A stretch of DNA of 64,000 nt from the human T2T-CHM13v2.0 reference genome, Homo sapiens: NCBI GenBank assembly GCA_009914755.4, contig CP086569.2:61760001-61824000 (forward strand), given 5' to 3'. Below, piece after piece: positions 1-59,750 of this stretch; positions within the stretch are counted from its first letter, which is position 1; each line of letters opens with the position of its first letter. The notes below the pieces were generated by a model. The model was not told the origin of the DNA and ran no database searches. It saw only the letters and a program-made list of their open reading frames with translations. Made by a program: the position numbers and the translations under genes.

Positions 1-27
1 CGGAATGGAATGCACTCGAATGCAATG

Positions 28-3000
28 GACTCGAAACTAATGGACTGGAATCGAATGGACTCGACTGGTACGGACTCCAATGGAATGGAATCGAATGGAA
101 TGGAATCGAACGGAATGAACTCGAAGTGAAAAGAGTGCAATGGAAAGGTCTCGAATGGAATGGAAATTAATGGAATGGAATGGAATCGAATGAAATGGAG
201 TCAAAAGGAATGGAATCGAATGGCAAGAAATCGAATGTAATGGAATCACAAGGAATGGATGTGAACGGAACGGAATGGAATGGAATCAAAAGGAATGGAA
301 TCGAATGGAATGGACTCGAATGGAAATGACACGAATAGAATGCAATTTAATAAAATAGAATCAAATGTAATGGAATGGAATGGAAAGGAATCGTAACGAA
401 AGGAATGGAGACAGATGGAATGGAATGGAACAGAGAGCAATGGTATAGAATGGAATGGAATCATATGGAATGGAATTGAATGGAATGGAATAATATGAAA
501 TGGAATGGAAAGGAATGGAATGCACTTGAATTAAATGGACTGGAATGGAATGGACTCGAACGGAGTGGAATGGAAAGGATTGAAATAGAATGGAATGGAC
601 TCCTTTGGAATGGTCTAGTATTCAATGCAAACGACTGGCAGGGAATCAAAAGGAATGTAATCGAATGGATTGGACTGGAATACAATGGACTCGAATACGT
701 TGGAAACGGAATGCAATGGAATGGAATGGAATAGTATGCAATGGAACGGAAAGGAATGAAGTAGAATGGACTAGAGTGGAATGGAATGGACTCGAAAGCA
801 ATGGACTGGAATGGAACGATCTTGAATGGACCGGAATCAAACGGAACGGAATGCAATGCAAGGCAATCAAATGGAATGGAATAAAAGAGAATGAAAGAGA
901 ATCAAATGCAATTGAATCGAATGGAATCGAATGGATTGGAAAGGAATAGAATGGAATGGAATGGAATTGACTCCAATGGAATGGACTAGAACGGAATGGA
1001 GTCGAATGGAAGGCAAAGGAATGGAATCTATTGGAATGGACTGTAATGGAATGGCATGGAAGGGATTGGAATGGACTCGAATGGAAAGGACTGCAATAGA
1101 AAGGATTCGAATGGAATGAAAAAGAATTGAATGGAATAGAACAGAATGGAATCAAATCGAATGAAATGGAATGGAATAGAAAGGAATGGAATGAAATGGA
1201 ATGGAAAGGATTCAAATGGAATGCAATCGAATGGAATGCAATAGAATGGAATGGAATCGAACGGAATGGAATAAAATGGAAGGAAACTGGCAAGAAATGG
1301 AATCGAAATGAATGGAGTGTTATGGAACGGACTCCAAAGGAATTGAATGTAATAGAATGGAGTGGAGTGGACTCGAATATAATGGACTGGAATGGAATGG
1401 AATCACATGGAATGGGAACGAATGGAATGGAATGGAAAGGAATGGAATCGAATGGAAAGGAATCAAATGGAAGGGAATGAAATTGAATCAACAGGAATGG
1501 AAGGGAATAGAATAGACTGTAATGGAATGGACTCGAATAGAATGGACACGAATGCTCAAATTGGATGGACTCGAATGGAATGGAAACGAAAGGAATGTCA
1601 TCGAATGGAATTGAATCGATTGGAATGAAATGGCATAGAATGGAGTGGAATGAAATGGAATTGAATCGAAAGGAAAGGAAGCGAATGGACTGAAATGAAA
1701 TGGAATGGAATTGAATGGAAAGTAATGCAATGGAATAGAATGGAACGAAATTTCACGGAATGGAATCAAACAGAATGGAATCAAATCAATGGAATATAAT
1801 CAAATGGAATGGAATGGAATGGAAAGGAATTGAATGGAATAGATTGGATAGGAAGGGATTGGAATGCAATGGAATGGAAAGGACTCGAATTTCATGAAAC
1901 GGAATGGAATGAATTGGAATGGAATGGACTCGAATGGAATGGAATGTCATGGAATGGCATCAAATGGAATGGAATCAAATGGAATGGCATCGAATGCAAT
2001 GGAATGTTATGGAATGGAATGGAATGTATTGGAATGGAATGTCCTCTAATGGAATGGATTCGAGTGGAATGGAATCGAATATAATGGAGTCGAATGAAAT
2101 GGAATTGAAAGGAATGGGATCGAATAGAATGGAATATACTGGAATGTAATGTAATGAAGTCGAATGTAATTGACTGGAATAGAATGTACATGAATGGAAT
2201 GTAATCGAATGGAAAGTAATCCAATGAAATAGAATCTAATGCAATAAAACCGACTCAAATGGAATAGAATGTAATGGAATGGAGTGCAGTGCAATGGAAT
2301 GGAATGGAATGGAATGGAATGGAGTGGAATGGAATGGAATGGGATGGAATGGTATGGAATGGATAGTAAAGGACTGGAGTGAAATGGACTGTAAAGGAAT
2401 GGACTCCAATTGAAAGGGCTCGAAAGGAATGGAGTCAAATGGAATGGTCTGGAATGGAATGAACTCGAATGTAATGCAATCCAATAGAATGGAATCGAAT
2501 GGAATGGAATATAAAGAAATGGAATCGACGAGAATGGAAACAGATGGAATGGAATTGAAAGGAATGGAATTGAATGGAATGGGCATGAATGGAATGAAAT
2601 TGTATGGAATAGAAGAGAATAGAATGGAATGCAATGGATAAGAAAGGAATGGATTGGAATGGAAGGGAATGTAGTGTAATGGACTGGCATGGAATAAACT
2701 GCAATGCTACGGACTCAAATGGAATAAAAATGTATGGAATGGAATGCCATGAAACGGAATCGAATGTCATAGAATGTAATGGAATGCAAAAAAATGGACT
2801 CCAAAATCATTGACTGGAAAGGCTGGGTGTCGAAAGGAATTGACTCCAATGGAATGGAATCGAATGGAACGGAAGTGAATAGAATCGAACTAAATCGAAT
2901 GGAATGGAATTGATAGGAACGGAATGGAAAGGAATGGAATGATTTGGCATGGAATGGAATCGAATGGACTCGAATGGAATGGAATGGAATGCAATGCAAT

Positions 3001-3562
3001 GGAATGTATTAGAATGTAGTGAACTTTAATGGAATGAACTCGAATGGATTCGACTGGAATGGAATGTTCTGGAAGTGAATGGACTCCAATGGAATGGATT
3101 CAAAAGGAATGGAATCGAAGGGAATGGAATCTAATGGAATGGAATGAAATGGAAAGGAATCAAATCGAATAGCACGGAATTGAACTGAATGGAATCGAAT
3201 GCAATGGAATCTAATGAAACGGAAAGGAAAGGAACGGAATGGCATGGAATGGGCTGGAATGGAATGGAATCGAAACGAATGGAAAGGAATCGAACTGAAG
3301 AGACTGGAATGGAATGCACTGGCATGGAAGGGAGTTTAATGGAAGGTTCTCGAAAAGACTGGAATCGAATGCAATGGAATTGAATGGAACGGATATAGAG
3401 TCAAATGGAATTGAATGGAATGGAATGGAGTAGAGTGAAATGGAATCGAGTCACAAGGAATGGACAGGAATAGAACGGTCTCGAATTGAATGGAATCGTA
3501 TGGAATGGAATTCAACGGAATGGAATGGACAGCCACGGAATGGAATGCACTCGAATGCAATG
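28..3562 (+). repeat. HOR unit 1 (3535 bp), subtype I
   Basis: Landmark gactcgaaactaatgg at 28 and next at 3563. Carries subtype-I diagnostic states (gtattcaatgcaaacg at ~620; ctggaatacaatggactcgaatacgttgg at ~675-702). Confidence 0.85.
2786..2837 (+). other. Least pentamer-like segment of the HOR (A7 run plus gctgggtgtcgaaagg); recurs once per unit and could serve as a unit-specific anchor
   Basis: gcaaaaaaatggactccaaaatcattgactggaaaggctgggtgtcgaaagg at 2786-2837. The same segment recurs at about +3535 intervals (6321, 9855, 13389 and so on); the divergent units carry the same block with SNVs. Confidence 0.6.
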
Positions 3563-6500
3563 CACTCGAAACTAATGGACTGGAATCGAATGGACTCGAC
3601 TGGTACGGACTCCAATGGAATGGAATCGAATGGAATGGAATCGAACGGAATGGACTCGAAGTGAAAAGAGTGCAATGGAAAGGTCTCGAATGGAATGGAA
3701 ATTAATGGAATGGAATGGAATCGAATGAAATGGAGTCAAAAGGAATGGAATCGAATGGCAAGAAATCGAATGTAATGGAATCACAAGGAATGGATGTGAA
3801 CGGAACGGAATGGAATGGAATCAAAAGGAATGGAATCGAATGGAATGGACTCGAATGGAAATGACTCGAATAGAATGGAATTCAACAAAATAGAATCAAA
3901 TGTAATGGAATGGAATGGAAAGGAATCAAAACGAAAGGAATGGAGACAGATGGAATGGAATGGAACAGAGAACAATTGTATATAATGGAATGGAATCATA
4001 TGGAATGGAATTGAATGGAATGAAATAATATAAAATGGAATGGAAAGGAATGGAATGCACTTGAATTAAATGGACTGGAATGGAATGGACTCGAACGGAG
4101 TGGAATGGAAAGGATTGAAATAGAATGGAATGGACTCCTTTGGAATGGTCTAGTATGCAATGCAAACGACTGGCAGGGAATCAAAAGGAATGTAATCGAA
4201 TGGATTGGCCTGGAATCAATGGACTCGAATACATTGGAAACGGAATGCAATGGAATGGAATGGAATAGTATGGAATGGAACGGAAAGGAATGAAGTAAAA
4301 TGGACTAGAGTGGAATGGAATGGACTCGAAAGCAATGGACTGGAATGGAACGATCTTGAATGGACCGGAATCAAACGGAAAGGAATGCAATGCAAGGCAA
4401 TCAAATGGAATGGAATAAAAGAGAATGAAAGAGAATCAAATGCAATTGAATCGAATGGAATCGAATGGATTGGAAAGGAATAGAATGGAATGGAATGGAA
4501 TTGACTCAAATGGAATGGACTAGAACGGAATGGAGTCGAATGGAAGGCAAAGGAATGGAATCTATTGGAATGGACTGTAATGGAATGGCATGGAAGGGAT
4601 TGGAATGGACTCGAATGGAAAGGACTGCAATAGAAAGGATTCGAATGGAATGAAAAAGAATTGAATGGAATAGAACAGAATGGAATCAAATCGAATGAAA
4701 TGGAATGGAATAGAAAGGAATGGAATGAAACGGAATGGAAAGGATTCAAATGGAATGCAATCGAATGGAATGCAATCGAATGGAATGGAATCGAACGGAA
4801 TGGAATAAAATGGAAGGAAACTGGCAAGAAATGGAATCGAAATGAATGGAGTGTTATGGAACGGACTCCAAAGGAATTGAATGTAATAGAATGGAGTGGA
4901 GTGGACGCGAACATAATGGACTGGAATGGAATGGAATCACATGGAATGGGAACGAATGGAATGGAATGGAAAGGAATGGAATCGAATGGATAGGAATCAA
5001 ATGGAAGGGAATGAAATTGAATCAACAGGAATGGAAGGGAATAGAATAGACTGTAATGGAATGGACTCGAATAGAATGGACACGAATGCTCAAATTGGAT
5101 GGACTCGAATGGAATGGAAACGAAAGGAATGTCATCGAATGGAATTGAATCGATTGGAATGAAATGGCATAGAATGGATTGGAATGAAATGGAATTGAAT
5201 CGAAAGGAAAGGAAGCGAATGGACTGAAATGAAATGGAATGGAATTAAATGGAAAGTAATGCAATGGAATAGAATGGAACGAAATTTCACGGAATGGAAT
5301 CAAACAGAATGGAATCAAATCAATTGAATATAATCAAATGGAATGGAATGGAATGGAAAGGAAATGAATGGAATAGATTGGATAGGAAGGGATTGGAATG
5401 CAATGGAATGGAAAGGACTCGAATTTCATGAAACGGAATGGAATGAATTGGAATGGAATGGACTCGAATGGAATGGAATGTCATGGAATGGCATCAAATG
5501 GAATGGAATCAAATGGAATGGCATCGAATGCAATGGAATGTTATGGAATGGAATGGAATGTATTGGAATGGAATGTCCTCTAATGGAATGGATTCGAGTG
5601 GAATGGAATCAAATATAATGGAGTCGAATGAAATGGAATTGAAAGGAATGGGATCGAATAGAATGGAATATACTGGAATGTAATGTAATGAAGTCGAATG
5701 TAATTGACTGGAATGGAATGTACATGAATGGAATGTAATCGAATAGAAAGTAATCCAATGAAATAGAATCTAATGCAATAAAACCGACTCAAATGGAATA
5801 GAATGTAATGGAATGGAGTGCAGTGCAATGGAATGGAATGGAATGGAATGCAATGGAGTGGAATGGAATGGAATGGGATGGAATGGTATGGAATGGATAG
5901 TAAAGGACTGGAGTGAAATGGACTGTAAAGGAATGGACTCCAATTGAAAGGGCTCGAAAGGAATGGAGTCAAATGGAATGGTCTGGAATGGAATGAACTC
6001 GAATGTAATGCAATCCAATAGAATGGAATCGAATGGAATGGAATATAAAGAAATGGAATCGACGAGAATGGAAACAGATGGAATGGAATTGAAAGGAATG
6101 GAATTGAATGGAATGGGCACGAATGGAATGAAATTGTATGGAATAGAAGAGAATAGAATGGAATGCAATGGATAAGAAAGGAATGGATTGGAATGGAAGG
6201 GAATGTAGTGTAATGGACTGGCATGGAATAAACTGGAATGCTACGGTCTCAAATGGAATAAAAATGTATGGAATGGAATGCCATGAAACGGAATCGAATG
6301 TCATAGAATGTAATGGAATGCAAAAAAATGGACTCCAAAATCATTGACTGGAAAGGCTGGGTGTCGAAAGGAATTGACTCCAATGGAATGGAATCGAATG
6401 GAATGGAAGTGAATAGAATCGAACTAAATCGAATGGAATGGAATTGATAGGAACGGAATGGAAAGGAATGGAATGATTTGGCATGGAATGGAATCGAATG

Positions 6501-7096
6501 GACTCGAATGGAATGGAATGGAATGCAATGGAATGGAATGTATTAGAATGTAGTGAACTTTAATGGAATGAACTCGAATGGATTCGACTGGAATGGAATG
6601 TTCTGGAAGTGAATGAACTCCAATGGAATGGATTCAAAAGGAATGGAATCGAAGGGAATGGAATCTAATGGAATGGAATGAAATGGAAAGGAATCAAATC
6701 GAATAGCACGGAATTGAACTGAATGGAATCGAATGCAATGGAATCTAATGAAACGGAAAGGAAAGGAATGGAATGGCATGGAATGGGCTGGAATGGAATG
6801 GAATCGAAACGAATGGAATGGAATCGAACTGAAGAGACTGGAATGGAATGCATTGGCATGGAAGGGAGTTTAATGGAAGGTTCTCGAAAAGACTGGAATC
6901 GAATGGAATGGAATTGAATGGAACGGATATAGAGTCAAATGGAATTGAATGGAATGGAATGGAGTAGAGTGAAATGGAATCGAGTCACAAGGAATGGACA
7001 GGAATAGAACGGTCTCGAATTGAATGGAATCGTATGGAATGGAATTCAACGGAATGGAATGGACAGCCACGGAATGGAATGCACTCGAATGCAATG
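3563..7096 (+). repeat. HOR unit 2 (3534 bp), subtype II
   Basis: Subtype-II states: agagaacaattgtatataatgg (~3966), gtatgcaatgcaaacg (~4155), ggattggcctggaatcaatggactcgaatacattgg (~4203-4236, a 1-bp deletion relative to type I). Confidence 0.85.
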
Positions 7097-10000
7097 GACT
7101 CGAAACTAATGGACTGGAATCGAATGGACTCGACTGGTACGGACTCCAATGGAATGGAATCGAATGGAATGGAATCGAACGGAATGAACTCGAAGTGAAA
7201 AGAGTGCAATGGAAAGGTCTCGAATGGAATGGAAATTAATGGAATGGAATGGAATCGAATGAAATGGAGTCAAAAGGAATGGAATCGAATGGCAAGAAAT
7301 CGAATGTAATGGAATCACAAGGAATGGATGTGAACGGAACGGAATGGAATGGAATCAAAAGGAATGGAATCGAATGGAAAGGACTCGAATGGAAATGACT
7401 CGAATAGAATGGAATTCAACAAAATAGAGTCAAATGTAATGGAATGGAATGGAAAGGAATCGAAACGAAAGGAATGGAGACAGATGGAATGGAATGGAAC
7501 AGAGAGCAATGGTATAGAATGGAATGGAATCATATGGAATGGAATTGAATGGAATGGAATAATATGAAATGGAATGGAAAGGAATGGAATGCACTTGAAT
7601 TAAATGGACTGGAATGGAATGGACTCGAACGGAGTGGAATGGAAAGGATTGAAATAGAATGGAATGGACTCCTTTGGAATGGTCTAGTATTCAATGCAAA
7701 CGACTGGCAGGGAATCAAAAGGAATGTAATCGAATGGATTGGACTGGAATACAATGGACTCGAATACGTTGGAAACGGAATGCAATGGAATGGAATGGAA
7801 TAGTATGCAATGGAACGGAAAGGAATGAAGTAGAATGGACTAGAGTGGAATGGAATGGACTCGAAAGCAATGGACTGGAATGGAACGATCTTGAATGGAC
7901 CGGAATCAAACGGAACGGAATGCAATGCAAGGCAATCAAATGGAATGGAATAAAAGAGAATGAAAGAGAATCAAATGCAATTGAATCGAATGGAATCGAA
8001 TGGATTGGAAAGGAATAGAATGGAATGGAATGGAATTGACTCCAATGGAATGGACTAGAACGGAATGGAGTCGAATGGAAGGCAAAGGAATGGAATCTAT
8101 TGGAATGGACTGTAATGGAATGGCATGGAAGGGATTGGAATGGACTCGAATGGAAAGGACTGCAATAGAAAGGATTCGAATGGAATGAAAAAGAATCGAA
8201 TGGAATAGAACAGAATGGAATCAAATCGAATGAAATGGAATGGAATAGAAAGGAATGGAATGAAATGGAATGGAAAGGATTCAAATGGAATGCAATCGAA
8301 TGGAATGCAATAGAATGGAATGGAATCGAACGGAATGGAATAAAATGGAAGGAAACTGGCAAGAAATGGAATCGAAATGAATGGAGTGTTATGGAACGGA
8401 CTCCAAAGGAATTGAATGTAATAGAATGGAGTGGAGTGGACTCGAATATAATGGACTGGAATGGAATGGAATCACATGGAATGGGAACGAATGGAATGGA
8501 ATGGAAAGGAATGGAATCGAATGGAAAGGAATCAAATGGAAGGGAATGAAATTGAATCAACAGGAATGGAAGGGAATAGAATAGACTGTAATGGAATGGA
8601 CTCGAATAGAATGGACACGAATGCTCAAATTGGATGGACTCGAATGGAATGGAAACGAAAGGAATGTCATCGAATGGAATTGAATCGATTGGAATGAAAT
8701 GGCATAGAATGGAGTGGAATGAAATGGAATTGAATCGAAAGGAAAGGAAGCGAATGGACTGAAATGAAATGGAATGGAATTGAATGGAAAGTAATGCAAT
8801 GGAATAGAATGGAACGAAATTTCACGGAATGGAATCAAACAGAATGGAATCAAATCAATGGAATATAATCAAATGGAATGGAATGGAATGGAAAAGAATT
8901 GAATGGAATAGATTGGATAGGAAGGGATTGGAATGCAATGGAATGGAAAGGACTCGAATTTCATGAAACGGAATGGAATGAATTGGAATGGAATGGACTC
9001 GAATGGAATGGAATGTCATGGAATGGCATCAAATGGAATGGAATCAAATGGAATGGCATCGAATGCAATGGAATGTTATGGAATGGAATGGAATGTATTG
9101 GAATGGAATGTCCTCTAATGGAATGGATTCGAGTGGAATGGAATCGAATATAATGGAGTCGAATGAAATGGAATTGAAAGGAATGGGATCGAATAGAATG
9201 GAATATACTGGAATGTAATGTAATGAAGTCGAATGTAATTGACTGGAATGGAATGTACATGAATGGAATGTAATCGAATGGAAAGTAATCCAATGAAATA
9301 GAATCTAATGCAATAAAACCGACTCAAATGGAATAGAATGTAATGGAATGGAGTGCAGTGCAATGGAATGGAATGGAATGGAATGGAATGGAGTGGAATG
9401 GAATGGAATGGGATGGAATGGTATGGAATGGATAGTAAAGGACTGGAGTGAAATGGACTGTAAAGGAATGGACTCCAATTGAAAGGGCTCGAAAGGAATG
9501 GAGTCAAATGGAATGGTCTGGAATGGAATGAACTCGAATGTAATGCAATCCAATAGAATGGAATCGAATGGAATGGAATATAAAGAAATGGAATCGACGA
9601 GAATGGAAACAGATGGAATGGAATTGAAAGGAATGGAATTGAATGGAATGGGCACGAATGGAATGAAATTGTATGGAATAGAAGAGAATAGAATGGAATG
9701 CAATGGATAAGAAAGGAATGGATTGGAATGGAAGGGAATGTAGTGTAATGGACTGGCATGGAATAAACTGGAATGCTACGGTCTCAAATGGAATAAAAAT
9801 GTATGGAATGGAATGCCATGAAACGGAATCGAATGTCATAGAATGTAATGGAATGCAAAAAAATGGACTCCAAAATCATTGACTGGAAAGGCTGGGTGTC
9901 GAAAGGAATTGACTCCAATGGAATGGAATCGAACGGATTGGAAGTGAATAGAATCGAACTAAATCGAATGGAATGGAATTGATAGGAACGGAATGGAAAG

Positions 10001-10631
10001 GAATGCAATGATTTGGCATGGAATGGAATCGAATGGACTCGAATGGAATGGAATGGAATGCAATGCAATGGAATGTATTAGAATGTAGTGAACTTTAATG
10101 GAATGAACTCGAATGGATTCGACTGGAATGGAATGTTCTGGAAGTGAATGGACTCCAATGGAATGGATTCAAAAGGAATGGAATCGAAGGGAATGGAATC
10201 TAATGGAATGGAATGAAATGGAAAGGAATCCAATCGAATAGCACGGAATTGAATTGAATGGAATCGAATGCAATGGAATCTAATGAAACGGAAAGGAAAG
10301 GAACGGAATGGCATGGAATGGGCTGGAATGGAATGGAATCGAAACGAATGGAATGGAATCGAACTGAAGAGACTGGAATGGAATGCACTGGCATGGAAGG
10401 GAGTTTAATGGAAGGTTCTCGAAAAGACTGGAATCGAATGCAATGGAATTGAATGGAACGGATATAGAGTCAAATGGAATTGAATGGAATGGAATGGAGT
10501 AGAGTGAAATGGAATCGAGTCACAAGGAATGGACAGGAATAGAACGGTCTCGAATTGAATGGAATCGTATGGAATGGAATTCAACGGAATGGAATGGACA
10601 GCCACGGAATGGAATGCACTCGAATGCAATG
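7097..10631 (+). repeat. HOR unit 3 (3535 bp), subtype I
   Basis: The landmark period and the translated ORF set match unit 1, with a few private SNVs (for example aagaatcgaatgg at ~8200; aatccaatcgaatagc at ~10229). Confidence 0.85.
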
Positions 10632-13600: not shown

Positions 13601-14165
13601 AATGGAATGTATTAGAATGTAGTGAACTTTAATGGAATGAACTCGAATGGATTCGACTGGAATGGAATGTTCTGGAAGTGAATGAACTCCAATGGAATGG
13701 ATTCAAAAGGAATGGAATCGAAGGGAATGGAATCTAATGGAATGGAATGAAATGGAAAGGAATCAAATCGAATAGCACGGAATTGAACTGAATGGAATCG
13801 AATGCAATGGAATCTAATGAAACGGAAAGGAAAGGAATGGAATGGCATGGAATGGGCTGGAATGGAATGGAATCGAAACGAATGGAATGGAATCGAACTG
13901 AAGAGACTGGAATGGAATGCATTGGCATGGAAGGGAGTTTAATGGAAGGTTCTCGAAAAGACTGGAATCGAATGGAATGGAATTGAATGGAACGGATATA
14001 GAGTCAAATGGAATTGAATGGAATGGAATGGAGTAGAGTGAAATGGAATCGAGTCACAAGGAATGGACAGGAATAGAACGGTCTCGAATTGAATGGAATC
14101 GTATGGAATGGCATCAAACGGAATGGAATGGACAGCCACGGAATGGAATGCACTCGAATGCAATG
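10632..14165 (+). repeat. HOR unit 4 (3534 bp), subtype II variant (I/II recombinant)
   Basis: The upstream part is type-I-like (agagagcaatggtatagaatgg at ~11037). It also has type-II gtatgcaatgcaaacg (~11222) and the 1-bp-deleted ctggaatcaatgg (~11280). Confidence 0.8.
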
Positions 14166-20700: not shown

Positions 20701-21234
20701 ATGGAATGAACTCGAATGGATTCGACTGGAATGGAATGTTCTGGAAGTGAATGAACTCCAATGGAATGGATTCAAAAGGAATGGAATCGAAGGGAATGGA
20801 ATCTAATGGAATGGAATGAAATGGAAAGGAATCAAATCGAATAGCACGGAATTGAACTGAATGGAATCGAATGCAATGGAATCTAATGAAACGGAAAGGA
20901 AAGGAATGGAATGGCATGGAATGGGCTGGAATGGAATGGAATCGAAACGAATGGAATGGAATCGAACTGAAGAGACTGGAATGGAATGCATTGGCATGGA
21001 AGGGAGTTTAATGGAAGGTTCTCGAAAAGACTGGAATCGAATGGAATGGAATTGAATGGAACGGATATAGAGTCAAATGGAATTGAATGGAATGGAATGG
21101 AGTAGAGTGAAATGGAATCGAGTCACAAGGAATGGACAGGAATAGAACGGTCTCGAATTGAATGGAATCGTATGGAATGGAATTCAACGGAATGGAATGG
21201 ACAGCCACGGAATGGAATGCACTCGAATGCAATG
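17701..21234 (+). repeat. HOR unit 6 (3534 bp), subtype II, mosaic
   Basis: The first ~1.7 kb is identical to unit 2 at offset 14138. The middle carries unit-7/9-like variants (HSTPFHSIPF, STPLYSIPF). The tail is unit-2-like (MPMHSIPV, LEFIHFQ). Confidence 0.8.
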
Positions 21235-24200
21235 GACTCGAAACTAATGGACTGGAATCGAATGGACTCGACTGGTACGGACTCCAATGGAATGGAATCG
21301 AATGGAATGGAATCGAACGGAATGAACTCGAAGTGAAAAGAGTGCAATGGAAAGGTCTCGAATGGAATGGAAATTAATGGAATGGAATGGAATCGAATGA
21401 AATGGAGTCAAAAGGAATGGAATCGAATGGCAAGAAATCGAATGTAATGGAATCACAAGGAATGGATGTGAACGGAACGGAATGGAATGGAATCAAAAGG
21501 AATGGAATCGAATGGAAAGGACTCGAATGGAAATGACTCGAATAGAATGGAATTCAACAAAATAGAGTCAAATGTAATGGAATGGAATGGAAAGGAATCG
21601 AAACGAAAGGAATGGAGACAGATGGAATGGAATGGAACAGAGAGCAATGGTATAGAATGGAATGGAATCATATGGAATGGAATTGAATGGAATGGAATAA
21701 TATGAAATGGAATGGAAAGGAATGGAATGCACTTGAATTAAATGGACTGGAATGGAATGGACTCGAACGGAGTGGAATGGAAAGGATTGAAATAGAATGG
21801 AATGGACTCCTTTGGAATGGTCTAGTATTCAATGCAAACGACTGGCAGGGAATCAAAAGGAATGTAATCGAATGGATTGGACTGGAATACAATGGACTCG
21901 AATACGTTGGAAACGGAATGCAATGGAATGGAATGGAATAGTATGCAATGGAACGGAAAGGAATGAAGTAGAATGGACTAGAGTGGAATGGAATGGACTC
22001 GAAAGCAATGGACTGGAATGGAACGATCTTGAATGGACCGGAATCAAACGGAACGGAATGCAATGCAAGGCAATCAAATGGAATGGAATAAAAGAGAATG
22101 AAAGAGAATCAAATGCAATTGAATCGAATGGAATCGAATGGATTGGAAAGGAATAGAATGGAATGGAATGGAATTGACTCAAATGGAATGGACTAGAACG
22201 GAATGGAGTCGAATGGAAGGCAAAGGAATGGAATCTATTGGAATGGACTGTAATGGAATGGCATGGAAGGGATTGGAATGGACTCGAATGGAAAGGACTG
22301 CAATAGAAAGGATTCGAATGGAATGAAAAAGAATCGAATGGAATAGAACAGAATGGAATCAAATCGAATGAAATGGAATGGAATAGAAAGGAATGGAATG
22401 AAATGGAATGGAAAGGATTCAAATGGAATGCAATCGAATGGAATGCAATAGAATGGAATGGAATCGAACGGAATGGAATAAAATGGAAGGAAACTGGCAA
22501 GAAATGGAATCGAAATGAATGGAGTGTTATGGAACGGACTCCAAAGGAATTGAATGTAATAGAATGGAGTGGAGTGGACTCGAATATAATGGACTGGAAT
22601 GGAATGGAATCACATGGAATGGGAACGAATGGAATGGAATGGAAAGGAATGGAATCGAATGGAAAGGAATCAAATGGAAGGGAATGAAATTGAATCAACA
22701 GGAATGGAAGGGAATAGAATAGACTGTAATGGAATGGACTCGAATAGAATGGACACGAATGCTCAAATTGGATGGACTCGAATGGAATGGAAACGAAAGG
22801 AATGTCATCGAATGGAATTGAATCGATTGGAATGAAATGGCATAGAATGGAGTGGAATGAAATGGAATTGAATCGAAAGGAAAGGAAGCGAATGGACTGA
22901 AATGAAATGGAATGGAATTGAATGGAAAGTAATGCAATGGAATAGAATGGAACGAAATTTCACGGAATGGAATCAAACAGAATGGAATCAAATCAATGGA
23001 ATATAATCAAATGGAATGGAATGGAATGGAAAAGAATTGAATGGAATAGATTGGATAGGAAGGGATTGGAATGCAATGGAATGGAAAGGACTCGAATTTC
23101 ATGAAACGGAATGGAATGAATTGGAATGGAATGGACTCGAATGGAATGGAATGTCATGGAATGGCATCAAATGGAATGGAATCAAATGGAATGGCATCGA
23201 ATGCAATGGAATGTTATGGAATGGAATGGAATGTATTGGAATGGAATGTCCTCTAATGGAATGGATTCGAGTGGAATGGAATCGAATATAATGGAGTCGA
23301 ATGAAATGGAATTGAAAGGAATGGGATCGAATAGAATGGAATATACTGGAATGTAATGTAATGAAGTCGAATGTAATTGACTGGAATGGAATGTACATGA
23401 ATGGAATGTAATCGAATGGAAAGTAATCCAATGAAATAGAATCTAATGCAATAAAACCGACTCAAATGGAATAGAATGTAATGGAATGGAGTGCAGTGCA
23501 ATGGAATGGAATGGAATGGAATGGAATGGAGTGGAATGGAATGGAATGGGATGGAATGGTATGGAATGGATAGTAAAGGACTGGAGTGAAATGGACTGTA
23601 AAGGAATGGACTCCAATTGAAAGGGCTCGAAAGGAATGGAGTCAAATGGAATGGTCTGGAATGGAATGAACTCGAATGTAATGCAATCCAATAGAATGGA
23701 ATCGAATGGAATGGAATATAAAGAAATGGAATCGACGAGAATGGAAACAGATGGAATGGAATTGAAAGGAATGGAATTGAATGGAATGGGCACGAATGGA
23801 ATGAAATTGTATGGAATAGAAGAGAATAGAATGGAATGCAATGGATAAGAAAGGAATGGATTGGAATGGAAGGGAATGTAGTGTAATGGACTGGCATGGA
23901 ATAAACTGGAATGCTACGGTCTCAAATGGAATAAAAATGTATGGAATGGAATGCCATGAAACGGAATCGAATGTCATAGAATGTAATGGAATGCAAAAAA
24001 ATGGACTCCAAAATCATTGACTGGAAAGGCTGGGTGTCGAAAGGAATTGACTCCAATGGAATGGAATCGAATGGAATGGAAGTGAATAGAATCGAACTAA
24101 ATCGAATGGAATGGAATTGATAGGAACGGAATGGAAAGGAATGGAATGATTTGGCATGGAATGGAATCGAATGGACTCGAATGGAATGGAATGGAATGCA

Positions 24201-24769
24201 ATGCAATGGAATGTATTAGAATGTAGTGAACTTTAATGGAATGAACTCGAATGGATTCGACTGGAATGGAATGTTCTGGAAGTGAATGGACTCCAATGGA
24301 ATGGATTCAAAAGGAATGGAATCGAAGGGAATGGAATCTAATGGAATGGAATGAAATGGAAAGGAATCAAATCGAATAGCACGGAATTGAACTGAATGGA
24401 ATCGAATGCAATGGAATCTAATGAAACGGAAAGGAAAGGAATGGAATGGCATGGAATGGGCTGGAATGGAATGGAATCGAAACGAATGGAAAGGAATCGA
24501 ACTGAAGAGACTGGAATGGAATGCACTGGCATGGAAGGGAGTTTAATGGAAGGTTCTCGAAAAGACTGGAATCGAATGCAATGGAATTGAATGGAACGGA
24601 TATAGAGTCAAATGGAATTGAATGGAATGGAATGGAGTAGAGTGAAATGGAATCGAGTCACAAGGAATGGACAGGAATAGAACGGTCTCGAATTGAATGG
24701 AATCGTATGGAATGGAATTCAACGGAATGGAATGGACAGCCACGGAATGGAATGCACTCGAATGCAATG
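21235..24769 (+). repeat. HOR unit 7 (3535 bp), subtype I
   Basis: Landmark period. Near-identical to unit 9 at offset 7069. Confidence 0.85.
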
Positions 24770-27700
24770 GACTCGAAACTAATGGACTGGAATCGAATGG
24801 ACTCGACTGGTACGGACTCCAATGGAATGGAATCGAATGGAATGGAATCGAACGGAATGGACTCGAAGTGAAAAGAGTGCAATGGAAAGGTCTCGAATGG
24901 AATGGAAATTAATGGAATGGAATGGAATCGAATGAAATGGAGTCAAAAGGAATGGAATCGAATGGCAAGAAATCGAATGTAATGGAATCACAAGGAATGG
25001 ATGTGAACGGAACGGAATGGAATGGAATCAAAAGGAATGGAATCGAATGGAATGGACTCGAATGGAAATGACTCGAATAGAATGGAATTCAACAAAATAG
25101 AATCAAATGTAATGGAATGGAATGGAAAGGAATCAAAACGAAAGGAATGGAGACAGATGGAATGGAATGGAACAGAGAACAATTGTATATAATGGAATGG
25201 AATCATATGGAATGGAATTGAATGGAATGAAATAATATAAAATGGAATGGAAAGGAATGGAATGCACTTGAATTAAATGGACTGGAATGGAATGGACTCG
25301 AACGGAGTGGAATGGAAAGGATTGAAATAGAATGGAATGGACTCCTTTGGAATGGTCTAGTATGCAATGCAAACGACTGGCAGGGAATCAAAAGGAATGT
25401 AATCGAATGGATTGGCCTGGAATCAATGGACTCGAATACATTGGAAACGGAATGCAATGGAATGGAATGGAATAGTATGGAATGGAACGGAAAGGAATGA
25501 AGTAAAATGGACTAGAGTGGAATGGAATGGACTCGAAAGCAATGGACTGGAATGGAACGATCTTGAATGGACCGGAATCAAACGGAAAGGAATGCAATGC
25601 AAGGCAATCAAATGGAATGGAATAAAAGAGAATGAAAGAGAATCAAATGCAATTGAATCGAATGGAATCGAATGGATTGGAAAGGAATAGAATGGAATGG
25701 AATGGAATTGACTCAAATGGAATGGACTAGAACGGAATGGAGTCGAATGGAAGGCAAAGGAATGGAATCTATTGGAATGGACTGTAATGGAATGGCATGG
25801 AAGGGATTGGAATGGACTCGAATGGAAAGGACTGCAATAGAAAGGATTCGAATGGAATGAAAAAGAATTGAATGGAATAGAACAGAATGGAATCAAATCG
25901 AATGAAATGGAATGGAATAGAAAGGAATGGAATGAAACGGAATGGAAAGGATTCAAATGGAATGCAATCGAATGGAATGCAATCGAATGGAATGGAATCG
26001 AACGGAATGGAATAAAATGGAAGGAAACTGGCAAGAAATGGAATCGAAATGAATGGAGTGTTATGGAACGGACTCCAAAGGAATTGAATGTAATAGAATG
26101 GAGTGGAGTGGACGCGAACATAATGGACTGGAATGGAATGGAATCACATGGAATGGGAACGAATGGAATGGAATGGAAAGGAATGGAATCGAATGGATAG
26201 GAATCAAATGGAAGGGAATGAAATTGAATCAACAGGAATGGAAGGGAATAGAATAGACTGTAATGGAATGGACTCGAATAGAATGGACACGAATGCTCAA
26301 ATTGGATGGACTCGAATGGAATGGAAACGAAAGGAATGTCATCGAATGGAATTGAATCGATTGGAATGAAATGGCATAGAATGGATTGGAATGAAATGGA
26401 ATTGAATCGAAAGGAAAGGAAGCGAATGGACTGAAATGAAATGGAATGGAATTAAATGGAAAGTAATGCAATGGAATAGAATGGAACGAAATTTCACGGA
26501 ATGGAATCAAACAGAATGGAATCAAATCAATTGAATATAATCAAATGGAATGGAATGGAATGGAAAGGAAATGAATGGAATAGATTGGATAGGAAGGGAT
26601 TGGAATGCAATGGAATGGAAAGGACTCGAATTTCATGAAACGGAATGGAATGAATTGGAATGGAATGGACTCGAATGGAATGGAATGTCATGGAATGGCA
26701 TCAAATGGAATGGAATCAAATGGAATGGCATCGAATGCAATGGAATGTTATGGAATGGAATGGAATGTATTGGAATGGAATGTCCTCTAATGGAATGGAT
26801 TCGAGTGGAATGGAATCAAATATAATGGAGTCGAATGAAATGGAATTGAAAGGAATGGGATCGAATAGAATGGAATATACTGGAATGTAATGTAATGAAG
26901 TCGAATGTAATTGACTGGAATGGAATGTACATGAATGGAATGTAATCGAATAGAAAGTAATCCAATGAAATAGAATCTAATGCAATAAAACCGACTCAAA
27001 TGGAATAGAATGTAATGGAATGGAGTGCAGTGCAATGGAATGGAATGGAATGGAATGCAATGGAGTGGAATGGAATGGAATGGGATGGAATGGTATGGAA
27101 TGGATAGTAAAGGACTGGAGTGAAATGGACTGTAAAGGAATGGACTCCAATTGAAAGGGCTCGAAAGGAATGGAGTCAAATGGAATGGTCTGGAATGGAA
27201 TGAACTCGAATGTAATGCAATCCAATAGAATGGAATCGAATGGAATGGAATATAAAGAAATGGAATCGACGAGAATGGAAACAGATGGAATGGAATTGAA
27301 AGGAATGGAATTGAATGGAATGGGCACGAATGGAATGAAATTGTATGGAATAGAAGAGAATAGAATGGAATGCAATGGATAAGAAAGGAATGGATTGGAA
27401 TGGAAGGGAATGTAGTGTAATGGACTGGCATGGAATAAACTGGAATGCTACGGTCTCAAATGGAATAAAAATGTATGGAATGGAATGCCATGAAACGGAA
27501 TCGAATGTCATAGAATGTAATGGAATGCAAAAAAATGGACTCCAAAATCATTGACTGGAAAGGCTGGGTGTCGAAAGGAATTGACTCCAATGGAATGGAA
27601 TCGAATGGAATGGAAGTGAATAGAATCGAACTAAATCGAATGGAATGGAATTGATAGGAACGGAATGGAAAGGAATGGAATGATTTGGCATGGAATGGAA

Positions 27701-28303
27701 TCGAATGGACTCGAATGGAATGGAATGGAATGCAATGGAATGGAATGTATTAGAATGTAGTGAACTTTAATGGAATGAACTCGAATGGATTCGACTGGAA
27801 TGGAATGTTCTGGAAGTGAATGAACTCCAATGGAATGGATTCAAAAGGAATGGAATCGAAGGGAATGGAATCTAATGGAATGGAATGAAATGGAAAGGAA
27901 TCAAATCGAATAGCACGGAATTGAACTGAATGGAATCGAATGCAATGGAATCTAATGAAACGGAAAGGAAAGGAATGGAATGGCATGGAATGGGCTGGAA
28001 TGGAATGGAATCGAAACGAATGGAATGGAATCGAACTGAAGAGACTGGAATGGAATGCATTGGCATGGAAGGGAGTTTAATGGAAGGTTCTCGAAAAGAC
28101 TGGAATCGAATGGAATGGAATTGAATGGAACGGATATAGAGTCAAATGGAATTGAATGGAATGGAATGGAGTAGAGTGAAATGGAATCGAGTCACAAGGA
28201 ATGGACAGGAATAGAACGGTCTCGAATTGAATGGAATCGTATGGAATGGAATTCAACGGAATGGAATGGACAGCCACGGAATGGAATGCACTCGAATGCA
28301 ATG
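24770..28303 (+). repeat. HOR unit 8 (3534 bp), subtype II; no differences from unit 2 in any translated ORF
   Basis: All translated ORFs of unit 2 recur at an offset of 21207 bp, including NQI, IPLHCIPF, STPLYLIPF, MPMHSIPV. Confidence 0.85.
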
Positions 28304-31300
28304 GACTCGAAACTAATGGACTGGAATCGAATGGACTCGACTGGTACGGACTCCAATGGAATGGAATCGAATGGAATGGAATCGAACGGAATGAACTCGA
28401 AGTGAAAAGAGTGCAATGGAAAGGTCTCGAATGGAATGGAAATTAATGGAATGGAATGGAATCGAATGAAATGGAGTCAAAAGGAATGGAATCGAATGGC
28501 AAGAAATCGAATGTAATGGAATCACAAGGAATGGATGTGAACGGAACGGAATGGAATGGAATCAAAAGGAATGGAATCGAATGGAAAGGACTCGAATGGA
28601 AATGACTCGAATAGAATGGAATTCAACAAAATAGAGTCAAATGTAATGGAATGGAATGGAAAGGAATCGAAACGAAAGGAATGGAGACAGATGGAATGGA
28701 ATGGAACAGAGAGCAATGGTATAGAATGGAATGGAATCATATGGAATGGAATTGAATGGAATGGAATAATATGAAATGGAATGGAAAGGAATGGAATGCA
28801 CTTGAATTAAATGGACTGGAATGGAATGGACTCGAACGGAGTGGAATGGAAAGGATTGAAATAGAATGGAATGGACTCCTTTGGAATGGTCTAGTATTCA
28901 ATGCAAACGACTGGCAGGGAATCAAAAGGAATGTAATCGAATGGATTGGACTGGAATACAATGGACTCGAATACGTTGGAAACGGAATGCAATGGAATGG
29001 AATGGAATAGTATGCAATGGAACGGAAAGGAATGAAGTAGAATGGACTAGAGTGGAATGGAATGGACTCGAAAGCAATGGACTGGAATGGAACGATCTTG
29101 AATGGACCGGAATCAAACGGAACGGAATGCAATGCAAGGCAATCAAATGGAATGGAATAAAAGAGAATGAAAGAGAATCAAATGCAATTGAATCGAATGG
29201 AATCGAATGGATTGGAAAGGAATAGAATGGAATGGAATGGAATTGACTCAAATGGAATGGACTAGAACGGAATGGAGTCGAATGGAAGGCAAAGGAATGG
29301 AATCTATTGGAATGGACTGTAATGGAATGGCATGGAAGGGATTGGAATGGACTCGAATGGAAAGGACTGCAATAGAAAGGATTCGAATGGAATGAAAAAG
29401 AATCGAATGGAATAGAACAGAATGGAATCAAATCGAATGAAATGGAATGGAATAGAAAGGAATGGAATGAAATGGAATGGAAAGGATTCAAATGGAATGC
29501 AATCGAATGGAATGCAATAGAATGGAATGGAATCGAACGGAATGGAATAAAATGGAAGGAAACTGGCAAGAAATGGAATCGAAATGAATGGAGTGTTATG
29601 GAACGGACTCCAAAGGAATTGAATGTAATAGAATGGAGTGGAGTGGACTCGAATATAATGGACTGGAATGGAATGGAATCACATGGAATGGGAACGAATG
29701 GAATGGAATGGAAAGGAATGGAATCGAATGGAAAGGAATCAAATGGAAGGGAATGAAATTGAATCAACAGGAATGGAAGGGAATAGAATAGACTGTAATG
29801 GAATGGACTCGAATAGAATGGACACGAATGCTCAAATTGGATGGACTCGAATGGAATGGAAACGAAAGGAATGTCATCGAATGGAATTGAATCGATTGGA
29901 ATGAAATGGCATAGAATGGAGTGGAATGAAATGGAATTGAATCGAAAGGAAAGGAAGCGAATGGACTGAAATGAAATGGAATGGAATTGAATGGAAAGTA
30001 ATGCAATGGAATAGAATGGAACGAAATTTCACGGAATGGAATCAAACAGAATGGAATCAAATCAATGGAATATAATCAAATGGAATGGAATGGAATGGAA
30101 AAGAATTGAATGGAATAGATTGGATAGGAAGGGATTGGAATGCAATGGAATGGAAAGGACTCGAATTTCATGAAACGGAATGGAATGAATTGGAATGGAA
30201 TGGACTCGAATGGAATGGAATGTCATGGAATGGCATCAAATGGAATGGAATCAAATGGAATGGCATCGAATGCAATGGAATGTTATGGAATGGAATGGAA
30301 TGTATTGGAATGGAATGTCCTCTAATGGAATGGATTCGAGTGGAATGGAATCGAATATAATGGAGTCGAATGAAATGGAATTGAAAGGAATGGGATCGAA
30401 TAGAATGGAATATACTGGAATGTAATGTAATGAAGTCGAATGTAATTGACTGGAATGGAATGTACATGAATGGAATGTAATCGAATGGAAAGTAATCCAA
30501 TGAAATAGAATCTAATGCAATAAAACCGACTCAAATGGAATAGAATGTAATGGAATGGAGTGCAGTGCAATGGAATGGAATGGAATGGAATGGAATGGAG
30601 TGGAATGGAATGGAATGGGATGGAATGGTATGGAATGGATAGTAAAGGACTGGAGTGAAATGGACTGTAAAGGAATGGACTCCAATTGAAAGGGCTCGAA
30701 AGGAATGGAGTCAAATGGAATGGTCTGGAATGGAATGAACTCGAATGTAATGCAATCCAATAGAATGGAATCGAATGGAATGGAATATAAAGAAATGGAA
30801 TCGACGAGAATGGAAACAGATGGAATGGAATTGAAAGGAATGGAATTGAATGGAATGGGCACGAATGGAATGAAATTGTATGGAATAGAAGAGAATAGAA
30901 TGGAATGCAATGGATAAGAAAGGAATGGATTGGAATGGAAGGGAATGTAGTGTAATGGACTGGCATGGAATAAACTGGAATGCTACGGTCTCAAATGGAA
31001 TAAAAATGTATGGAATGGAATGCCATGAAACGGAATCGAATGTCATAGAATGTAATGGAATGCAAAAAAATGGACTCCAAAATCATTGACTGGAAAGGCT
31101 GGGTGTCGAAAGGAATTGACTCCAATGGAATGGAATCGAATGGAATGGAAGTGAATAGAATCGAACTAAATCGAATGGAATGGAATTGATAGGAACGGAA
31201 TGGAAAGGAATGGAATGATTTGGCATGGAATGGAATCGAATGGACTCGAATGGAATGGAATGGAATGCAATGCAATGGAATGTATTAGAATGTAGTGAAC

Positions 31301-31838
31301 TTTAATGGAATGAACTCGAATGGATTCGACTGGAATGGAATGTTCTGGAAGTGAATGGACTCCAATGGAATGGATTCAAAAGGAATGGAATCGAAGGGAA
31401 TGGAATCTAATGGAATGGAATGAAATGGAAAGGAATCAAATCGAATAGCACGGAATTGAACTGAATGGAATCGAATGCAATGGAATCTAATGAAACGGAA
31501 AGGAAAGGAATGGAATGGCATGGAATGGGCTGGAATGGAATGGAATCGAAACGAATGGAATGGAATCGAACTGAAGAGACTGGAATGGAATGCACTGGCA
31601 TGGAAGGGAGTTTAATGGAAGGTTCTCGAAAAGACTGGAATCAAATGCAATGGAATTGAATGGAACGGATATAGAGTCAAATGGAATTGAATGGAATGGA
31701 ATGGAGTAGAGTGAAATGGAATCGAGTCACAAGGAATGGACAGGAATAGAACGGTCTCGAATTGAATGGAATCGTATGGAATGGAATTCAACGGAATGGA
31801 ATGGACAGCCACGGAATGGAATGCACTCGAATGCAATG
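28304..31838 (+). repeat. HOR unit 9 (3535 bp), subtype I
   Basis: Landmark at 28304. Almost identical to unit 7; the one difference seen is VRFHSIRFD versus VRFLSIRFD near 31.5 kb. Confidence 0.85.
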
Positions 31839-59500: not shown

Positions 59501-59750
59501 CTCGAATGGATTCGACTGGAATGGAATGTTCTGGAAGTGAATGGACTCCAATGGAATGGATTCAAAAGGAATGGAATCGAACAGAATGGAATCTAATGGA
59601 ATGGAATTAAATGGAAAGGAATCAAATGGAATAGCACGGAATTGAATTGAATGGAATCGAATGCAATGTAATCTAATGAAACGGAAAGGAAAGGAACGGA
59701 ATGGCATGGAATGGGCTGGAATGGAATGGAATCAAAACGAATGGAATGGA
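53700..59750 (+). repeat. Diverged HSat3 HOR island (about 1.7 units) inside the homogeneous array
   Basis: By eye, roughly 5-10 percent nucleotide divergence plus indels relative to the flanking units, which differ from each other by well under 1 percent. Its two copies resemble each other more than they resemble canonical units. Still a pure pentamer satellite, with no foreign sequence. Confidence 0.75.

What the first reader, a model, noticed from the sequence alone, without database searches (positions are those of the whole stretch)
1..31838. Long tracts with no detectable differences at 4-unit and 6-unit offsets
All translated ORFs of 1-~5340 recur unchanged at 14139-~19478 (offset 14,138 bp), including private variants found nowhere else in the window (RYDSF...NCILFVSF, MYILFQ, FIPFMPIPFN, GMGMNG). 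Identity breaks near 5600 versus 19740 (NQI versus NRI). Unit 8 (24770-28303) matches unit 2 in every translated ORF at offset 21,207, and unit 9 closely resembles unit 7 at offset 7,069. This indicates very recent segmental duplication or conversion events spanning several HOR units, that is, multi-unit slippage within the array.
Basis: seen in the sequence. Interest (0 to 1): 0.5.

Follow-up and report, generated by a model that had tools for sequence, protein, structure and literature searches.

The report
Recent multi-unit duplications in DYZ1-like satellite
The near-identical tracts are real: they are recent head-to-tail duplications of two and four repeat units, plus a small gene-conversion patch, inside a Y-chromosome-type (DYZ1/HSat3A6-like) pentamer satellite, which is how such arrays are already known to evolve.

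Summary
The window is one uninterrupted (GGAAT)n satellite made of 18 higher-order units of about 3,535 bp. At offset 14,138 (4 units), 1-9933 matches 14139-24071 with 5 mismatches. At offset 7,069 (2 units), 17374-24491 matches 24443-31560 with 3. At offset 21,207 (6 units), 3236-9933 matches 24443-31140 with 2. Ordinary unit pairs differ at a median of 30 sites.

The 2-unit tract is 7,118 bp long for an offset of 7,069. That equality is the signature of a tandem duplication by out-of-register exchange, with the junction in 24443-24491. The 6-unit tract is exactly the intersection of the other two, so it is a by-product, not a third event. This is a short gene-conversion patch (241-1,166 bp), not the end of the tract.

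The array carries the published HSat3A6 (DYZ1) marker 24-mer. However, it is about 4% diverged from the canonical 3,569-bp DYZ1 unit, is 34 bp shorter and lacks its HaeIII site.

Unequal exchange and conversion in DYZ1 are already documented, so this is a clean but ordinary example. Species and chromosomal position could not be established.

The parts
1..9933 (+). Copy 1 of the 4-unit-offset tract (units 1, 2 and most of 3). It is cut by the window start. If this is a simple tandem duplication, it should begin about 4.2 kb upstream of the window.
   Evidence: only 5 mismatches against 14139-24071 (3563, 5611, 5745, 5851, 8043). Mismatches then cluster from 9934 onwards; exact blocks of 3,562, 2,047, 2,191 and 1,890 bp.
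14139..24071 (+). Copy 2 of the 4-unit-offset tract (units 5, 6 and most of 7).
17374..24442 (+). Copy 1 of the 2-unit (7,069-bp) tandem duplication, running from unit 5 position 3236 to unit 7 position 3235.
   Evidence: at offset 7,069 the bounding mismatches are 17373 and 24492. Inside the tract only 19749, 19883 and 19989 differ. Tract length is 7,118 bp against an offset of 7,069.
24443..31511 (+). Copy 2 of the 2-unit tandem duplication (tail of unit 7, unit 8 and most of unit 9).
   Evidence: 19990-24491 = 27059-31560 exactly (4,502 bp) and 17374-19748 = 24443-26817 exactly (2,375 bp).
24443..24491 (+). The 49-bp interval that contains the junction of the 2-unit duplication. Unit 7 switches here from a C-type head to an A-type (unit 5-like) tail.
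   Evidence: At alignment site u-pos 3235, unit 7 has T (C-type) and unit 5 has C. At u-pos 3285, unit 7 has A, shared with units 1, 5 and 15, while unit 9 has T. The hybrid call rests on this single site.
3236..9933 (+). The 6-unit-offset tract (matches 24443-31140). It is the intersection of the 4-unit and 2-unit tracts and a by-product of them.
   Evidence: mismatches only at 3563 and 8043, bounded by 3235 and 9934.
19503..20668 (+). Maximum extent of the gene-conversion patch in unit 6. The three converted sites are 19749, 19883 and 19989, so the tract is at least 241 bp and at most 1,166 bp.
   Evidence: at u-pos 2077, 2211 and 2317, unit 6 carries G/G/G like the A/C-type units, whereas its sister copies (units 2 and 8) carry A/A/C; 19503-20668 is exactly identical to 23038-24203 in adjacent unit 7.
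3563..3563 (+). Singleton substitution private to unit 2 (C; every other unit has G). It is a point mutation after the duplication, or a base error.
8043..8043 (+). Single-site difference between unit 3 (C, shared with units 1 and 5) and units 7 and 9 (A, the majority allele). It is a point change or a very short conversion.
9934..10604 (+). Tail of unit 3, which has a different haplotype from the tails of units 7 and 9. On the duplication model it is the start of copy 2, derived from a unit upstream of the window.
   Evidence: unit 3 differs from unit 7 at u-pos 2865, 2869, 2937, 3162, 3185, 3235 and 3285. Several of these alleles are shared with units 11, 13 and 18.
31812..38881 (+). Units 10 and 11, a near-identical adjacent pair from a single-unit duplication (4 differences).
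   Evidence: 31644-33851 = 35179-37386, 2,208 bp exact.
1..64000 (+). A continuous (GGAAT)n-derived satellite in one orientation: 18 complete units of 3,488-3,535 bp plus a partial 19th.

Best explanation
The window is a stretch of a DYZ1/HSat3A6-family pentamer satellite built of about 3.5-kb higher-order units.

In its first 32 kb, two recent out-of-register exchanges produced head-to-tail duplications. These were most likely unequal sister-chromatid exchanges, or an equivalent template-switching repair event. One duplicated four units (14,138 bp) and one duplicated two units (7,069 bp). The present order of unit types is A B C* D A B C^ B C, where C* and C^ are hybrid junction units. The 6-unit-offset identity follows automatically from the two events. 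Their order cannot be resolved.

After the duplications, a short gene conversion (241-1,166 bp) copied a neighbouring unit's sequence into unit 6. One or two single-base changes also arose (3563, 8043).

Shown directly:
- the tracts, their boundaries and their mismatches;
- tract length approximately equal to the offset for the 2-unit event;
- the allele pattern of the patch.

Inferred:
- the molecular mechanism (unequal exchange);
- the full extent of the 4-unit event, which is cut by the window start;
- the age. This is a few hundred generations if the pedigree rate for Yq12 applies (3.86e-7 per bp per generation, PMC12240836). For example, 5/(2 x 9933 x 3.86e-7) is about 650 and 3/(2 x 7069 x 3.86e-7) is about 550. 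At a euchromatic rate the age would be more than ten times greater.
For: - **Observation.** Near-identity at offsets 14,138, 7,069 and 21,207, against a background median of 30 substitutions per unit pair.
- **Duplication signature.** The 2-unit tract is 7,118 bp against an offset of 7,069, and unit 7 is a hybrid at the junction.
- **Internal consistency.** The 6-unit tract boundaries (3236 and 9933) equal the relevant boundaries of the other two tracts.
- **Conversion patch.** Three sites within 241 bp all change to the allele of the adjacent unit, with 1,166 bp of exact identity to unit 7.
- **Single orientation.** GC skew is constant and one TRF array spans the window, as tandem duplication requires.
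- **Family.** The published HSat3A6 24-mer occurs 14 times exactly, and none of the 13 other subfamily 24-mers occurs (PMC4022460).
[quoted passage not shown] In pedigrees, 29% of Yq12 de novo SNVs look like interlocus gene conversion, and about one whole-unit structural change occurs per Y transmission (PMC12240836). A second pedigree set classed 17% as conversion-like (PMC13252187).
Against: - The 4-unit tract is cut by the window start. Only 9,933 of the expected 14,138 bp are visible, so its tract-equals-offset test cannot be done.
- The hybrid status of unit 7 rests on a single informative site (u-pos 3285).
- No reads are available, so an assembly artefact cannot be excluded.
- Unequal crossover, replication slippage and break-induced replication cannot be told apart from sequence alone.
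- The chromosome and species are not established, so the Yq12 rates may not apply.
Confidence: 0.8

Rival explanations
1. Long-tract, multi-unit gene conversion. Pre-existing units at 14139-24071 and 24443-31560 were overwritten with the sequence of units lying 4 and 2 units away, with no change in copy number.
For: Conversion does operate in this array: the unit 6 patch and the pedigree data for Yq12. The 4-unit tract's full length is unseen, so its length need not equal the offset.
Against: The 2-unit tract length (7,118 bp) matches the offset (7,069 bp) to within 49 bp. A conversion model would have to treat this as coincidence. Tracts of 7-10 kb are far longer than the one conversion patch seen here (1,166 bp at most). 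The junction unit is a hybrid, as expected from a crossover.
Confidence: 0.08
2. Assembly artefact. A satellite segment was falsely duplicated, or copies were wrongly made uniform during assembly or polishing, so the identical tracts are not in the genome.
For: Satellite arrays are a known source of assembly errors. The 2026 Y-assembly preprint describes mis-walked loops in tandem repeats. No reads were available here.
Against: The copies are not fully identical. Each long tract carries copy-specific differences (3563, the three-site patch, 8043, 24492) spaced at most 4.5 kb apart, which long accurate reads can phase. The boundaries also form a coherent nested pattern, which random mis-joins would not give.
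Confidence: 0.07
3. Chance similarity, or sequence constraint that keeps some units identical.
For: None beyond the generally high (about 99%) similarity of units.
Against: The chance of zero differences in a unit is about 1e-13 at the median divergence. Identity follows contiguous multi-unit blocks with sharp edges, not particular functional sites. The ORFs are translation artefacts of the pentamer with no Pfam match above cut-off.
Confidence: 0.01

Closest known systems
DYZ1 (HSat3A6), the ~3.5-3.6-kb nested pentamer satellite of human Yq12
   Same: - Derived from the (CATTC/GGAAT)n pentamer and organised in units of about 3.5 kb.
- Carries the published HSat3A6-specific 24-mer, 14 times exactly.
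- 95.7% identical at aligned positions over the whole unit to canonical DYZ1. The canonical unit was recovered here from contaminant contigs with periods of 3,569 and 3,574 bp.
- Units 16 and 17 keep the canonical HaeIII site and the 154-bp primer interval.
   Different: - The main unit is 3,535/3,534 bp, not 3,569 bp.
- It shows 149 substitutions and 10 indels against the canonical unit. All indels but one are multiples of 5 bp.
- It has no HaeIII site at the canonical position, and the primer interval is 134 bp instead of 154 bp.
- Published Yq12 units are mostly more than 98% identical to consensus, so this is an outlying subfamily.
- No DYZ2 is present in the window, and chromosome and species are unverified.
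Tandem duplication and homogenisation of satellite arrays by unequal exchange, as reported for Yq12, DYZ19 and centromeric alpha-satellite arrays in complete Y assemblies
   Same: Head-to-tail multi-unit duplicates, locally near-identical units embedded among more diverged ones, hybrid junction units, and co-occurring short conversion patches.
   Different: The scale here is small (7 and 14 kb), whereas published examples reach 5 Mb. Here the breakpoints can be placed to tens of base pairs.
Interlocus gene conversion in Yq12 seen in pedigrees (PMC12240836; PMC13252187)
   Same: Clustered base changes whose new alleles already exist in a nearby non-orthologous repeat copy. The unit 6 patch matches adjacent unit 7 exactly over 1,166 bp.
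   Different: Here the event is inferred from a single sequence and was not observed across a transmission.

Membership tests
HSat3-type pentameric satellite | Array derived from tandem GGAAT/CATTC pentamers | tested here: met
   TRF reports one array covering 3-63962 with 10-, 15-, 30- and 45-bp consensus units built of GGAAT. Composition and skew are uniform.
HSat3A6 / DYZ1 | Presence of the subfamily-specific 24-mer of Altemose et al. 2014 and absence of other subfamilies' markers | tested here: met
   TCGTTTCGATTCCTTTCCATTCCA is found 14 times exactly (36 times with at most 1 mismatch). The example 24-mers of the 13 other HSat2/3 subfamilies are found 0 times exactly. Only the one example 24-mer per subfamily printed in the paper was available.
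HSat3A6 / DYZ1 | Nested higher-order unit of about 3.5-3.6 kb | tested here: met
   Unit lengths are 3,535 or 3,534 bp in 15 of 18 units. The modal human unit is 3,569 bp.
HSat3A6 / DYZ1 | One HaeIII (GGCC) site per unit, giving the classical 3.4-3.57-kb fragment | tested here: not met
   There are only 6 GGCC sites in 64 kb. The canonical site is present only in units 16 and 17 (55640, 59149). The main consensus has none. The canonical proxies L009 and L003 have exactly one per unit.
HSat3A6 / DYZ1 | High identity (>98%) to the DYZ1 consensus, as reported for most Yq12 units | tested here: not met
   The main consensus is 95.7% identical at aligned positions to L009 and L003, plus 10 indels. 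Units 16 and 17 are 96.6-96.9% identical. The proxies are contaminant contigs, not the published consensus.
HSat3A6 / DYZ1 | Location in Yq12, in blocks alternating with DYZ2 (HSat1B) | not testable with these tools
   No DYZ2 or any non-pentamer sequence lies in the window. No primate genome database was available.
Tandem duplication by unequal (out-of-register) exchange | The near-identical tract at offset P has length approximately P, and the copies are adjacent and in the same orientation | tested here: met
   For the 2-unit event the tract is 7,118 bp and the offset 7,069 bp. For the 4-unit event the test is inconclusive, because the tract (at least 9,933 bp) is cut by the window start.
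Tandem duplication by unequal (out-of-register) exchange | A hybrid repeat unit at the junction | tested here: met
   Unit 7 has a C-type head up to u-pos 3235 and the A-type allele at 3285, which is a single informative site. Unit 3 has a C-type head up to 2864 and a foreign tail with 7 differing sites.
Short-tract gene conversion | Clustered changes that all match an existing donor copy, with unchanged flanks | tested here: met
   Unit 6 differs from its sister copies (units 2 and 8) only at 19749, 19883 and 19989. All three match unit 7, and 19503-20668 = 23038-24203 exactly.

The most novel reading that the evidence does not exclude
The array may belong to a DYZ1 subfamily that has not been described as such. 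Its features are:
- a 3,535/3,534-bp unit;
- about 4% substitution divergence plus ten indels relative to the canonical 3,569-bp unit;
- no HaeIII site;
- a 20-bp deletion inside the classical 154-bp DYZ1 PCR interval.

It forms its own homogenisation domain and encloses two relic units (16 and 17) that are closer to canonical DYZ1. It could mark a peripheral or ancient Yq12 block, a non-Y copy, or a non-human ape orthologue.
Probability: 0.2. Interest if true: 0.25.

Novelty: already known. Interest (0 to 1): 0.1.

Why it matters
It matters little beyond illustration. The window gives a base-pair-resolved example of how satellite arrays are homogenised, with the following features:
- nested multi-unit tandem duplications;
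- one junction localised to 49 bp;
- a later conversion patch that separates two processes usually lumped together as "concerted evolution".

If the array can be placed on a Y phylogeny, the two duplications could be dated independently and compared with pedigree-based Yq12 mutation rates. The divergent, HaeIII-less unit type is a reminder that restriction-based or PCR-based DYZ1 assays do not see all DYZ1-family sequence.

Tried and rejected
- **Ungapped offset scan.** It showed peaks at 7,069 and 3,535 but was blurred by indels. I replaced it with unit segmentation and MAFFT.
- **Fuzzy anchor search with indels.** It gave shifted starts. I replaced it with a substitution-only 80-mer anchor.
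- **Source identification through proteins.** An exact look-up of the 214-aa ORF found nothing. A homology search with the 281-aa ORF gave only two weak, low-complexity hits.
- **Literature search for the DYZ1 primer strings.** It found no paper, so the primers are from my memory. They were validated only indirectly: both match the canonical contaminant contigs with 0 mismatches and a 154-bp interval.
- **First pattern scan of genome contigs.** No hits. The viral-contig scan also gave none.
- **Nakahori 1986 (PMC311781).** Not held.
- **Coding potential of the ORFs.** Rejected, because nothing in Pfam passed the cut-off. They are read-through of a 15-nt periodic repeat.
- **A separate 6-unit duplication.** Rejected, because its boundaries are those of the other two tracts.
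- **Order of the two duplications.** I tried to resolve it from shared derived sites, but there are none, so it remains unresolved.
Full report
**What the window is**

The whole 64-kb window is one uninterrupted satellite derived from the pentamer GGAAT. It lies in a single orientation. GC content is constant at 0.38-0.40 and GC skew at about +0.55. Tandem Repeats Finder reports one array covering 3-63962.

An 80-base anchor recurs every 3,534-3,535 bp. This defines 18 complete higher-order units and a partial 19th. The unit starts are 1, 3536, 7070, 10605, 14139, 17674, 21208, 24743, 28277, 31812, 35347, 38882, 42417, 45937, 49471, 53006, 56494, 59998 and 63533.

**Checking the observation**

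- 1-6000 against 14139-20138 has four mismatches (3563, 5611, 5745, 5851).
- 3563-7096 against 24770-28303 has one mismatch, at 3563.

The longest exact repeats in the window are:
- 4,502 bp: 19990-24491 = 27059-31560, offset 7,069.
- 4,479 bp: 3564-8042 = 24771-29249, offset 21,207.
- 3,562 bp: 1-3562 = 14139-17700, offset 14,138.

In a MAFFT alignment of the units, u1 and u5 are identical. The other close pairs are u2/u8 (1 difference), u7/u9 (2), u6/u8 (3), u2/u6 (4) and u3/u7 (8). The 120 pairs of ordinary units have a median of 30 substitutions, with quartiles 23-35. At that rate, the probability that a whole unit shows no difference by chance is about 1e-13.

Three details of the finding need correcting:
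- There is one nucleotide difference inside the "unchanged" 1-5340 stretch, at 3563.
- Two of the five "private" peptides (FIPFMPIPFN and GMGMNG) also occur in units 13 and 15.
- Near-identity at the 4-unit offset does not end near 5600. It continues to 9933.

**Anatomy of the tracts**

| Offset | Copy 1 | Copy 2 | Mismatches inside | Bounding mismatches |
|---|---|---|---|---|
| 14,138 (4 units) | 1-9933 | 14139-24071 | 3563, 5611, 5745, 5851, 8043 | window start; 9934 |
| 7,069 (2 units) | 17374-24491 | 24443-31560 | 19749, 19883, 19989 | 17373; 24492 |
| 21,207 (6 units) | 3236-9933 | 24443-31140 | 3563, 8043 | 3235; 9934 |

After 9933, seven more mismatches follow within 420 bp at the 4-unit offset. 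Units 4 and 8 then differ at 29 sites.

**Duplication or conversion?**

The 2-unit tract is 7,118 bp long and its offset is 7,069 bp. A tandem duplication of period P must produce a near-identical tract of length P at offset P, plus a short chance extension. A conversion tract has no reason to equal the offset.

The variant table also shows that unit 7 is a hybrid. It has the C-type allele at unit position 3235. At position 3285 it has the allele of units 1, 5 and 15. This is what an out-of-register crossover between unit 7 and unit 5 would produce. The junction therefore lies within 24443-24491. The hybrid call rests on a single informative site. Without that site the tract would still end at 24573, giving 7,200 bp.

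The 6-unit tract is exactly the intersection of the other two. Its left edge, 3236, equals 17374 - 14138. Its right edge, 9933, is the right edge of the 4-unit tract. It is therefore a transitive consequence of two events, not a third event.

The 4-unit tract is truncated by the window start. The model predicts that it extends about 4.2 kb upstream. It also predicts that the foreign tail of unit 3 plus unit 4 (9934-14138) repeats that upstream sequence. This could not be tested.

The present order of unit types is A B C* D A B C^ B C. No shared derived sites exist, so the order of the two events cannot be resolved.

**The "identity break" is a conversion patch**

Unit 6 differs from its sister copies u2 and u8 only at three sites within 241 bp (unit positions 2077, 2211 and 2317; window 19749, 19883 and 19989). 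At all three it carries the allele of the flanking A/C-type units. B-type markers are retained on both sides, at unit positions 1830 and 2997. Unit 6 is exactly identical to adjacent unit 7 over 19503-20668 = 23038-24203, which is 1,166 bp.

This is the pattern of a short gene conversion of 241-1,166 bp. It occurred after both duplications, because u2 and u8 still share the original state.

Position 3563 is a singleton in u2 (C; every other unit has G). It is a point mutation or a base error. Position 8043 is a single-site difference involving an allele shared with units 1 and 5.

**Which satellite**

Altemose et al. 2014 (PMC4022460) print one diagnostic 24-mer for each of 14 HSat2/3 subfamilies. 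The HSat3A6 (DYZ1) 24-mer occurs 14 times exactly on the minus strand. None of the other 13 occurs exactly.

A conserved 30-mer from the window retrieved seven short contigs from bacterial genome assemblies. This is the kind of human Y-satellite contamination that the T2T-Y paper describes. Two of these contigs close on themselves with periods of 3,569 and 3,574 bp. They are 99.9% identical to each other.

The figure of 3,569 bp is the most abundant DYZ1 HaeIII fragment length in complete human Y assemblies (10.1101/2022.12.01.518658). Each of these contigs has one GGCC per unit. The DYZ1 primer pair I recalled from memory matches them with no mismatch and a 154-bp interval. I therefore take them as proxies for canonical DYZ1.

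Against these proxies, the window's main consensus (3,535 bp) shows:
- 95.7% identity at aligned positions, with ten indels, all but one a multiple of five bases;
- no GGCC site;
- a primer interval of 134 bp instead of 154 bp.

The array therefore belongs to the DYZ1/HSat3A6 family by marker and architecture. It fails two properties of typical Yq12 units: the HaeIII site and more than 98% identity to consensus. I could not determine chromosome or species. Protein-based look-ups gave nothing and no primate genome database was available.

**Comparison with what is known**

The following are already published:
[quoted passage not shown] It also reports sister chromatid exchanges in about 15% of Strand-seq libraries.
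- Hallast et al. report homogenised units in array centres and divergent units towards the edges.
- Pedigree studies report a Yq12 rate of 3.86e-7 per bp per generation. They find 29% (or, in another data set, 17%) of new SNVs attributable to interlocus gene conversion. They also find roughly one whole-unit structural change per Y transmission.

The finding is therefore a clear small-scale instance of documented processes.

If the Yq12 rate applies, the differences between copies imply ages of a few hundred generations. The estimates are 5/(2 x 9933 x 3.86e-7), about 650, and 3/(2 x 7069 x 3.86e-7), about 550. At euchromatic rates the ages would be more than ten times larger. This dating is inference and depends on the unverified location.

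**Rivals**

- **Multi-unit conversion.** It is disfavoured by the equality of tract length and offset and by tract size. It is not excluded for the 4-unit event.
- **Assembly artefact.** It cannot be excluded without reads. However, each copy carries its own variants at spacings of at most 4.5 kb, and the boundaries nest coherently.
- **Chance or selection.** Both are excluded by the statistics and by the block structure.

**Verdict**

- The phenomenon is already known, so interest is low.
- The only mildly unusual aspect is the divergent, HaeIII-less unit type and the two canonical-like relic units embedded in it.

Noticed in passing
window 53006-59997 (divergence begins near 53250): Units 16 and 17 (3,488 and 3,504 bp) are sharply divergent from their neighbours, at about 95.3% identity to the main consensus. 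They differ from each other by 110 substitutions. They are closer to canonical DYZ1 (96.6-96.9%) and keep its HaeIII site (55640, 59149) and the 154-bp primer interval. They look like relics of another subfamily inside a homogenised array.
   Followed up: partly
window 1-31811 (units 1-9): Units of 3,535 and 3,534 bp alternate. The 3,534-bp B/D-type units (u2, u4, u6, u8, and also u14) share a 1-bp deletion at unit position 682 and about 10 further alleles. This gives a 7,069-bp dimeric super-period, which is the best ungapped self-match offset in the window. Much of the alternation is explained by the two duplications.
   Followed up: partly
window 10605-17673 vs 45937-53005: Units 4 and 14 share D-type alleles and differ by only 18 substitutions. 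Unit 15 is a mosaic. It carries D-type alleles at unit positions 868 and 992, and A-type alleles at 2586, 2702, 2713 and 3285. This suggests an older relationship at a 10-unit offset and repeated exchange.
   Followed up: no
window ~44375 (unit 13, unit positions 1959-1973): A 15-bp deletion (three pentamers) is private to unit 13, making it 3,520 bp.
   Followed up: no
window 31812-38881: Units 10 and 11 differ at only 4 sites. Three of these (unit positions 2865, 2869, 2870) are clustered and carry alleles shared with other units. This is a single-unit duplication, probably followed by a small conversion.
   Followed up: partly
L003-L009 (for example BMRF01000076.1 Actinomadura cremea JCM 3308; CAYVXY010000078.1; NZ_JBFAJD010000109.1): Seven contigs in bacterial genome assemblies are 98.4-100% identical to one canonical DYZ1 unit. 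This is human male DNA contamination of microbial assemblies, as the T2T-Y paper reported.
   Followed up: partly
L002 524-1693 (OAWE01001279.1) and L001 (OAUT01000082.1): The two metagenome contigs carry DYZ1 variants intermediate between canonical DYZ1 and the window's type. Part of L002 is 97.1% identical to the window consensus and 96.5% to canonical. L001 has one canonical and one window-type primer site in adjacent units. DYZ1-family variants that share features of the window's type therefore exist in public data alongside canonical units.
   Followed up: partly
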